Shown here one piece after another: positions 48,148-49,739 of a stretch of DNA of 64,000 nt. The translations under genes and the position numbers were made by a program. Numbering within the stretch: position 1 is the first letter of the stretch; the number at the start of each line of letters is the position of its first letter. The notes beneath the pieces are model-generated. The model was not told where the DNA came from, did no database searches, and saw only the letters and a list, made by a program, of their open reading frames with translations. Origin of the DNA: Heptranchias perlo (taxonomy: Eukaryota). The DNA is taken from the NCBI RefSeq assembly GCF_035084215.1, contig NC_090351.1:10540001-10604000 (forward strand), given 5' to 3'.

Positions 48148-48561
48148 TAGGGTTGCTAAATTCTGAACTGGGTTCCTCAGTGATTTATTTGATGCAATCT
48201 TCTTTCTGATTTGACGACACTCTCCAGCATTAATGAGGCTTCCACACACATTTTTACAATTTCTATCTTTTTATGAGATCTAAAAAATATTGTGAGGGAG
48301 TAACATATTGAAAATACTGATTTAAGAAGCACCAGTGTGAAGTCAATTCATTTTCATTTTTCTTCGGATTAAAACATTTGTATAAACCCGTAAAGTTTTT
48401 AGAGGCCAACATTGATCAGGCTAGAATGAAGGGAGCTTTGAAACAGTTTACTGATTGTGTGAATGATCCCAATGAAAACCCTGTAATCATTTTATTGGAA
48501 TGTAGATCTGACTCTGCTTTTTTTAATATATTTTAAATCACACTATGTTACAATGTGTAAC

Positions 48562-48598
48562 TCACCTGATGAAGGAGGTAAGCTCCGAAAGCTTGTGA
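48562..48598 (+). ncRNA. Minimal type I hammerhead ribozyme within a Penelope-terminus remnant (about 48555-48648)
   Basis: UCAC-CUGAUGA-A-GGAG(GUAAG)CUCC-GAAA-GCUU-GUGA: perfect core, 4-bp stem I, 4-bp stem II; followed by AATAAA at 48604 and ttggactataac, shared with 40836-40880. Confidence 0.8.
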
Positions 48599-49739
48599 TT
48601 TAAAATAAAACTGTTGGACTATAACCTGGTGTTGTGCAAGTCCTTACATTAATCGGGGATTGATACTGACTCCTGTCTGCTGTAGAAATCATGTACATCA
48701 CCAGGCAGTTAGGGAAAAGAGAACAAATAAAAAGTTGGAACATCAGTAGGTATTACAGGGAGTCTGTCAATGTTTTTGTTACAACTAACACAATGTAGAA
48801 GAATCCTACTGTACTAATGAATTCCTGTGCTAGCATTTCTGTAACTGTTAGTTCTCTAATCTAGATAATTTTCCCCTGGTTGATGTCTGCAGAAGGAATG
48901 GTCACAGGAACACAAAATAAATTGAAATCACCAAAGTTCTATTCATCTCAATAGTCCATTGTTAATAAAATATGCAGCCTTTACTTTTATATTTACTCTA
49001 CTTCCTAAAAGATGGCTGGTGTTACATCACAGCAAAGGATCTGCATTGTGATCAAATAGCTAAATAACATCTGCCATCCTGCACTGTGTCTGGGAGCCTT
49101 TGTGTCACCACCAGAACAGTCCAGGCTGTCTCCAATAGCAACATCTCTTTTCAAAGGATCTATGAGGTAATTGTGCACTCAGAATAGACAACACGATGAC
49201 ATCAATCAACAATGACATCACATCAGCAGTTTACTCTTAGGAACAAGAAAAGCAAAAGTCATTTCTCTTCGTGAGTATAAAACACAACCAGATCGGACTT
49301 GGAAATCCAGATGTGTTGAGTGATTCCGTGAAGTCAAGTGTTACAGACATAGGTTCAAGTCCTACTCTGCTCAGTTCCCGTCTGAACGATGTCGGGGTAA
49401 ACTTTCACCTTTAGCACTCCCAGCACATTGCAGGCTGGGGGGTGCAGATTAGGAATTCATGTACGTGTCTGATTTGCGATGCATCATTTTCCGTCCCACA
49501 GTATCACTGGTCACTCCTGTAAGTGGACTGCGTGTCCCTACAATCTGGAGCACATTTTTACTGCCAAATATCTAGTTAAACAGTAGTTTGACCCGGGGAT
49601 CACTGTGATCTCACACATGTCGCCACATACATTCTCCCGCCTTTCCAGATAGTGGATTGAAAAGCAATCTAGTGAGAAAAGGCCAATTGTAAACCAGCAA
49701 ACTGGCTTATTTTACATTGAATACATGATTGAAAAGAAT

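What the first reader, a model, noticed from the sequence alone, without database searches (positions are those of the whole stretch)
48555..48648. Sense-strand hammerhead ribozyme about 415 nt after the ALP1 stop codon, immediately before an AATAAA
Seen: a complete minimal hammerhead (stem I UCAC/GUGA, CUGAUGA, stem II GGAG/CUCC, GAAA, predicted cut after the U at 48594) on the ALP1 coding strand. AATAAA follows at 48604; the only earlier signal I noticed is ATTAAA at 48368. The fragment is homologous to the Penelope terminus at 40836-40924. Known: Penelope-like elements carry minimal hammerheads with a palindromic stem III that cleave best as dimers, and rodent Clec2 3' UTR hammerheads reduce expression. 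Inference: a long ALP1 isoform could take its poly(A) site from this remnant and be cleaved from its tail, a possible exapted control on a toxin-fold gene.
Basis: partly seen in the sequence, partly recalled or inferred. Interest (0 to 1): 0.7.

Follow-up and report, generated by a model that had tools for sequence, protein, structure and literature searches.

The report
Young Penelope stub in host UTR
A 92-base scrap of a very abundant jumping gene sits in the untranslated tail of an actinoporin-like gene; it likely landed recently, and it carries a known self-cutting RNA motif that is likely idle here plus a signal that may end the message early, so it is most likely an ordinary insertion rather than a gene control.

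Summary
The motif is real: a minimal type-I hammerhead at 48562-48598 on the coding strand, AATAAA at 48604. It is a 92-nt insertion of a Penelope-like element end with TAA on both sides. Two paralogue lineages in this genome show the empty site, as does a contig of a related organism (only 20 letters on one side). Its 91 bases are identical to 12 of 29 other loci fetched; the family core occurs 19,117 times, so some 60-120 sense copies in 3' UTRs are expected by chance. Stem III forms only in a dimer, no second sense copy lies in the gene, and published relatives cleave weakly or need the element's protein. The scan noted this family many times in this genome and a stump in a 3' UTR of another genome. 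Interest low.

The parts
44522..44607 (+). Coding part of the penultimate exon of the actinoporin-like gene (ATG at 44522; exon starts 44507)
   Evidence: contig joint 44607>47739, GT..AG, 4 of 4 runs; frame arithmetic gives 165 codons with the stop
47739..48147 (+). Coding part of the last exon, actinoporin-like domain, stop TAG 48145-47
48148..48557 (+). Host 3' UTR upstream of the insertion, with ATTAAA 48368 (not kept in paralogues)
   Evidence: covered by the spliced contigs; paralogue alignment
48529..48542 (+). Host 14-mer complementary to element 48594-48607; predicted to pair with the cut site, the 3' strand of stem I and part of AAUAAA
   Evidence: its core is also in paralogue L036
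48558..48560 (+). Left TAA of the 3-nt duplication (last base also matches the element)
48560..48650 (+). Penelope-like pLTR fragment, 5'-truncated two bases before stem I, lacking the optional 30-40-nt tail
48562..48598 (+). Minimal type-I hammerhead; stem III only as AGCU:AGCU in a dimer; predicted cut after 48594
   Evidence: sequence; definition from PMC4209133
48604..48609 (+). Element-borne AATAAA, first canonical hexamer after the stop; present in 49 of 49 family copies that span it in L002-L030
48650..48652 (+). Right TAA of the duplication (first base also matches the element)
48726..48731 (+). Host AATAAA kept in paralogue L036, changed in L033/L034; candidate older poly(A) signal
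40829..43029 (-). Neighbouring frameshifted Penelope-like copy (RT, GIY-YIG-like stretch, 3' pLTR with hammerhead), other subfamily, opposite strand
   Evidence: RVT_1 E 1.7e-10; GIY-YIG E 0.0011, 19.6 bits, under the 22.6 cut-off

Best explanation
It is a 92-nt end fragment of a Penelope-like retrotransposon inserted, likely recently, at a TAA in the 3' UTR of an actinoporin-like gene, carrying the family's standard minimal hammerhead, which is likely idle in this mRNA. Shown: family identity, empty sites, TAA on both sides, spliced contigs reaching 48589-48600. Inferred: the element's endonuclease nicked the AT-rich site, reverse transcription started at the inner start point (no tail), copied an uncut RNA across the whole ribozyme and stopped two bases beyond stem I. 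Inferred: the ribozyme cannot close stem III alone, has no partner in the transcript and so cuts little. Inferred, about even odds: its AATAAA now serves as a proximal poly(A) signal; otherwise the host AATAAA at 48726 does. Either way the hammerhead lies between stop and tail by accident.
For: 13 of 30 loci L001-L030 (the window's own included; L013 and L021 are two arms of one insertion) hold the exact 91-mer; 0/91 differences bounds divergence from the source at 3.2%, against 55/744 and 27/652 differing letters between the flanks and organism B. Core pattern 9,604 + 9,513 matches, reversed control 0; the exact 35-mer 101 matches. Empty site with a single TAA-type junction in genomic paralogues L036 (overlaps L032), L033, L034 (L033/L034 are 99.4% alike, so two lineages). 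X5 contig 20 runs from a 19/20 match to 48538-57 straight into 48650-49300. Chance expectation 59-118 sense copies in 3' UTRs on assumed 20,000 genes of 1-2 kb. Only one sense core in 43900-49800; modelled dimer -16.1 against -17.0 kcal/mol for two monomers. Published: single min-HHR no detectable cleavage, dimers low (PMC4209133); Anolis PAc HHR no cleavage without protein, uncut RNA is the main template, tail is the stretch between two RT starts, ATT nick motif (PMC11167929). TE-derived poly(A) sites are common and mostly non-conserved (PMC2553571 abstract).
Against: The core is intact and sense, between stop and poly(A) signals, the Clec2 geometry. Activity of this sequence was not measured; figures come from other species. 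With only 20 nt of upstream flank stems I and II form at 0.95, and in one window (48450-48600) at 0.97, so a co-transcriptional fold is possible. The predicted misfold is no special argument for this locus: 9 of 9 other identical copies also misfold (stem I <= 0.01). X5 contig 20 has only 20 letters upstream of the site, under the tool's 31-letter rule for bridging, and X6 did not reach the site. All organism-A runs are one sample. Youth does not exclude an effect or very recent selection. The predicted host helix covers four letters of AAUAAA, which speaks against its use.
Confidence: 0.75

Rival explanations
1. The ribozyme cuts a noticeable share of this mRNA in cells, helped in trans by the element's protein or by family RNAs that supply the other half of stem III; the effect is a side effect of transposon activity, not an adaptation.
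For: Intact core and palindrome; PAc HHR is protein-assisted (PMC11167929); family-like contigs are many in organism A runs (642 and 266 records laid); all 19,117 core matches share AAGCUU by the pattern.
Against: Only 8 intermolecular pairs, modelled dimer not favoured. In PAc the helping protein is thought to bind at the RT start region; this copy lacks the tail and downstream ORF sequence. No reads ended at the cut site in Anolis RNA-seq. X1's contig is chained through 31-mers that span the cut site to 48600, a weak hint of uncut RNA because about 101 loci share those words.
Confidence: 0.13
2. Most mRNA ends at ATTAAA 48368, and the fragment lies outside the mature message except in minor read-through.
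For: Contigs are word chains with one depth figure, so a minor long form could be joined to a major short one.
Against: One unbroken contig covers 47739 to 48589-48600 in 4 of 4 runs; organism B contigs also pass the site (to 48483 and 48494); the ATTAAA is absent from 3 of 3 paralogue alignments, L032 and L036 counted once.
Confidence: 0.09
3. One reading: an exapted, selected control that details or destabilises the mRNA of a toxin-fold gene.
For: Sense orientation, position just before AATAAA, inclusion in spliced contigs; Clec2 precedent, 80% reporter reduction (PMC2950038 passages).
Against: No substitution since insertion; empty in paralogues and in a relative; the ribozyme-AATAAA spacing is the element's own, 49 of 49 copies; dozens of such UTR copies expected by chance; Clec2 ribozymes work from one transcript and recur across mammals. 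Toxicity of the host protein is untested; the zebrafish ALP Dr1 is not cytolytic (PMC8778704 passages).
Confidence: 0.03

Closest known systems
Minimal hammerheads in pLTRs of metazoan Penelope-like elements (Cervera and De la Pena 2014, PMC4209133; parts 1-2 of 4 read)
   Same: Type I, 4-bp stem I, unpaired base between 9 and 10.1, G10.1-C11.1, palindromic 15.2-16.2, no stem III as monomer, thousands of dispersed single copies
   Different: This copy lies sense in a spliced host 3' UTR; nothing else differs
Anolis PAc Poseidon element (Frangieh et al. 2024, PMC11167929; passages and second half of main text read)
   Same: Insertion at an AT-rich ATT-type site, optional 30-40-nt tail, copy made across an uncut ribozyme
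   Different: Other clade not excluded (linker Cys motif seen resembles the Neptune/Nematis description in PMC8557442 passages; no tree built); mechanism here inferred, not assayed
Clec2 3' UTR hammerheads of mammals (Martick et al. 2008, seen only through PMC6765202 section 12 and PMC2950038 passages)
   Same: Hammerhead between stop codon and poly(A) signal on the mRNA strand
   Different: Clec2: discontinuous, complete within one transcript, active in vitro, lowers reporter expression, found in several mammals. Here: contiguous, needs a dimer, untested, lineage-specific
Transposon-derived poly(A) sites (Lee, Ji and Tian 2008, PMC2553571; abstract only)
   Same: A mobile element brings a poly(A) hexamer into a 3' UTR upstream of an older one
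   Different: Donor is a Penelope pLTR with a ribozyme 10 nt upstream; use of the site not shown

Membership tests
PLE minimal hammerhead | Core CUGANGA ... GAAA ... UH with C3-G8 | tested here: met
   48566-72, 48587-90, U48593-U48594; H is U
PLE minimal hammerhead | Stem I 4-5 bp, stem II with G10.1-C11.1 and one base between 9 and 10.1 | tested here: met
   stem II is 4 bp, shorter than the 7-8 bp described for Schistosoma
PLE minimal hammerhead | Palindromic 15.2-16.2, stem III only in a dimer | tested here: met
   AAGCUU 48589-94
PLE minimal hammerhead | Lies in the pLTR of an RT + GIY-YIG element | tested here: met
   near-identical copies follow ORF sequence 90-94% like 41110-41860 in L006, L014, L019, L022, L027; RT match clear, GIY-YIG under the Pfam cut-off
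PLE minimal hammerhead | Self-cleavage as a dimer | not testable with these tools
   needs an assay
Rfam hammerhead families | Match to a covariance model | tested here: not met
   no hammerhead family at E <= 1 in the window
Clec2-type regulatory 3' UTR ribozyme | Located between stop and poly(A) signal in the mRNA | tested here: inconclusive
   spliced contigs reach 48589-48600; the 3' end is not shown
Clec2-type regulatory 3' UTR ribozyme | Three helices formed within one transcript | tested here: not met
   no stem III, no second sense core in 43900-49800
Clec2-type regulatory 3' UTR ribozyme | Present at the orthologous site in other species | tested here: not met
   empty site in X5 contig 20 (20 letters on one side) and in paralogues; one relative only
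Clec2-type regulatory 3' UTR ribozyme | Lowers expression, dead mutant does not | not testable with these tools
   needs a reporter
Transposon-derived poly(A) site | Hexamer comes from the element | tested here: met
   49 of 49 copies; absent at the empty site
Transposon-derived poly(A) site | Tails added 10-30 nt downstream on this gene's mRNA | not testable with these tools
   only contigs were on hand

The most novel reading that the evidence does not exclude
Host mRNAs that have caught a sense Penelope stub, perhaps 60-120 in this genome, are armed with half-ribozymes that the element's own protein or RNA switches on in trans, so bursts of transposon expression cut the tails off a set of host messages, this actinoporin-like mRNA among them.
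Probability: 0.06. Interest if true: 0.75.

Novelty: new member of a known kind. Interest (0 to 1): 0.2.

Why it matters
As found, it matters little: one more copy of a known ribozyme-bearing repeat, here in a host UTR. Its use is as a clean test substrate: an intact, unmutated minimal hammerhead in a spliced single-locus mRNA with known empty-site controls could answer whether these motifs cut at all in cells, which PMC4209133 leaves open. If they were activated in trans, transposon expression would directly control host mRNA stability.

Tried and rejected
No RNA holder listed: all 7 runs are 'RNA?' guesses kept as contigs; X1-X6 were laid, X7 (share 0.04) was not. Coverage holes and depths: no X1 or X4 contig covers 48672-49300, X2 has a 142-nt contig over 48623-48763 at depth 4 against 129.5 upstream, and X5 covers 48650-49300 at 57 against 122. 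This looks like a UTR shortened by the insertion, but contigs show no ends or levels and a filter drops records, so I keep it as a lead only. Likewise the lack of X5/X6 cover over the element at 80% likeness, and three X1 records from other loci that end 2-5 letters past 48635. Contig ends at 48589-48600 near the cut site: rejected as a sign of cleavage; 31-letter words entering a repeat at 48560 predict 48589, and the last word holding T48570 (where commoner variants have C) predicts 48600. An X4 joint 48594>48560 with 6 letters between matches the inverted arm seen in many copies, not a circle. Host-flank hairpin as a locus-specific off-switch: rejected as evidence because 9 of 9 control copies also misfold and the result depends on the window. 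Pair count on two sequences is uninformative. Rfam gave nothing. Lunse et al. 2017 is not held; I know it only through PMC6765202. Paper searches listed no paper on a Penelope hammerhead in a host 3' UTR or on cartilaginous-fish actinoporin-like genes; I read listings only for most, and no supplements, where such examples could stand.

Full report
Observation. The sequence holds UCAC (48562-65), CUGAUGA (48566-72), an extra A, stem II GGAG/CUCC, GAAA (48587-90), GC, UU and GUGA (48595-98), with the cut predicted after U48594 and AATAAA at 48604. The 56-nt stretch folds into stems I and II (z -1.89, 9 of 200 shuffles as good). The loose core pattern is not rare in the window (10 matches, 6.7 expected), and Rfam gave no hammerhead match at E <= 1. 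The features match the minimal hammerhead defined in PMC4209133 (parts 1-2 of 4 read).

Host gene. The last exon encodes an actinoporin-like domain (PF06369). Contigs from 4 of 4 runs of one sample join 44607 to 47739 across a GT..AG intron, and the frame is open for 164 codons. It is one of nine related loci on the same contig (9 matches of 22 candidates scored).

What the fragment is. A genome search with 48545-48655 gave 1,222 candidates, 40 scored, 54 matches. Of the 30 loci fetched, 13 hold the exact 91-mer 48560-48650, the window's own included and two being arms of one insertion; these loci were chosen by likeness, so this shows that identical copies exist, not how common they are. A 33-place core pattern matches 19,117 times (reversed control 0) and the exact 35-mer 101 times. 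In five loci (L006, L014, L019, L022, L027) near-identical copies follow sequence 90-94% like the ORF end at 41110-41860 (output partly cut), which belongs to an element with an RT and a weak GIY-YIG match. The window's own element end at 40829-40919 is only 83.5% alike, another subfamily. In 17 of 30 loci a shared tail follows the 91-mer; here it is missing.

It is a derived insertion. Paralogue UTRs in the same genome align to both flanks and lack the element: L036 (overlapping L032), L033 and L034 (the last two are 99.4% alike). In organism B, X5 contig 20 begins with a 19/20 match to 48538-57 and continues into 48650-49300 at 96% identity; it has only 20 letters on the upstream side, below the tool's bridging rule, and X6 stopped at 48494. 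The filled site has TAA at 48558-60 and 48650-52, the empty site one, so 92 nt were added. Zero differences in 91 nt bound divergence from the source at 3.2%, while the flanks differ from organism B at 55 of 744 and 27 of 652 letters.

How it arrived (inferred). PMC11167929 (passages and second half of the main text) reports for an Anolis element nicking at ATT, two RT start points that delimit the optional tail, and uncut RNA as the main template. The empty site reads ATTA on the lower strand, the copy lacks the tail and spans the whole ribozyme, as that scheme predicts.

Is it in the mRNA? The spliced contigs cover 47739 to 48600, 48595, 48596 and 48589 (X1-X4), past ATTAAA 48368, which 3 of 3 paralogue alignments lack. 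The ends follow from 31-letter words entering a repeat and say nothing on cleavage. X1's chain includes words across the cut site, a weak hint of uncut RNA. Where the tail is added is open: the element's AATAAA (49 of 49 copies) is the first canonical hexamer after the stop, but a host AATAAA at 48726 is kept in L036 and two more follow.

Does it cut? Not tested. Stem III needs a second molecule; there is no second sense core in 43900-49800, and a modelled dimer (-16.1 kcal/mol) is no better than two monomers (-17.0, no tertiary energy). Published single motifs showed no cleavage and dimers little; the Anolis motif needed protein; a review says the same (PMC6765202 passages). In most windows the host flank is predicted to pair with 48594-48607 and abolish stem I, but 2 of 7 windows gave stems at about 0.95 and one at 0.6, and 9 of 9 identical copies elsewhere misfold too, so this is not a locus-specific argument.

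Is the position special? With 19,117 cores and an assumed 20,000 UTRs of 1-2 kb, 59-118 sense copies in 3' UTRs are expected by chance, each with the AATAAA 10 nt behind the cut site because the element carries it. The likeness to Clec2 (PMC6765202 section 12; PMC2950038 passages) is geometric only: that ribozyme is complete in one transcript, active and shared among mammals. A 2026 preprint (10.64898/2026.07.22.740005, passages) reports related elements depleted from genes, which fits tolerated accidents.

Verdict. A new copy of a known kind. Best reading 0.75: recent passenger, ribozyme largely idle, poly(A) donation at even odds. Accidental cleavage 0.13, outside the main mRNA 0.09, exapted control 0.03. 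Earlier scan notes describe the same family 241 times by words in this genome and a stump in a 3' UTR of another genome; they are unchecked and I used them as leads only. Interest 0.2.

Noticed in passing
window 48529-48542 and 48594-48607: A host 14-mer is exactly complementary to the element starting at the predicted cut site; 0 of 5,000 shuffles and 1 of 311 AT-rich 60-mers of the window reach 14 (that one, 20 letters, was not located). Its core is in paralogue L036, so it predates the insertion; it may have helped the element land here. Found after looking, unexplained.
   Followed up: partly
G000:C30:10.59-11.0 Mb; window 58890-59291 (-): Cluster of nine actinoporin-like loci, 33-53% alike to this exon, one facing this gene in the window, one with two stops; paralogues share 70-80% of the 3' UTR.
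   Followed up: partly
L033:2086-2170: A paralogue has its own Penelope end copy, antisense, about 0.5 kb behind the homologous site.
   Followed up: no
L002, L003, L013/L021, L018, L020, L023, L025, L030: Head-to-head inverted pairs of the same end fragment with turning points near stem I.
   Followed up: no
window 44039-44417: An upstream exon joined to 44507 across an 89-nt GT..AG intron in X1 only.
   Followed up: no
window 24357-24402 (+): 46-nt fragment of SRP RNA, 33.6 bits, under the gathering score.
   Followed up: no
window 24599-25201 (-): A 200-codon open frame with an Adaptin_N match (E 5e-16); a long exon or a retrocopy.
   Followed up: no
window 55670-57121: Open frames on both strands with a weak ice-binding repeat match, probably a tandem repeat.
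   Followed up: no
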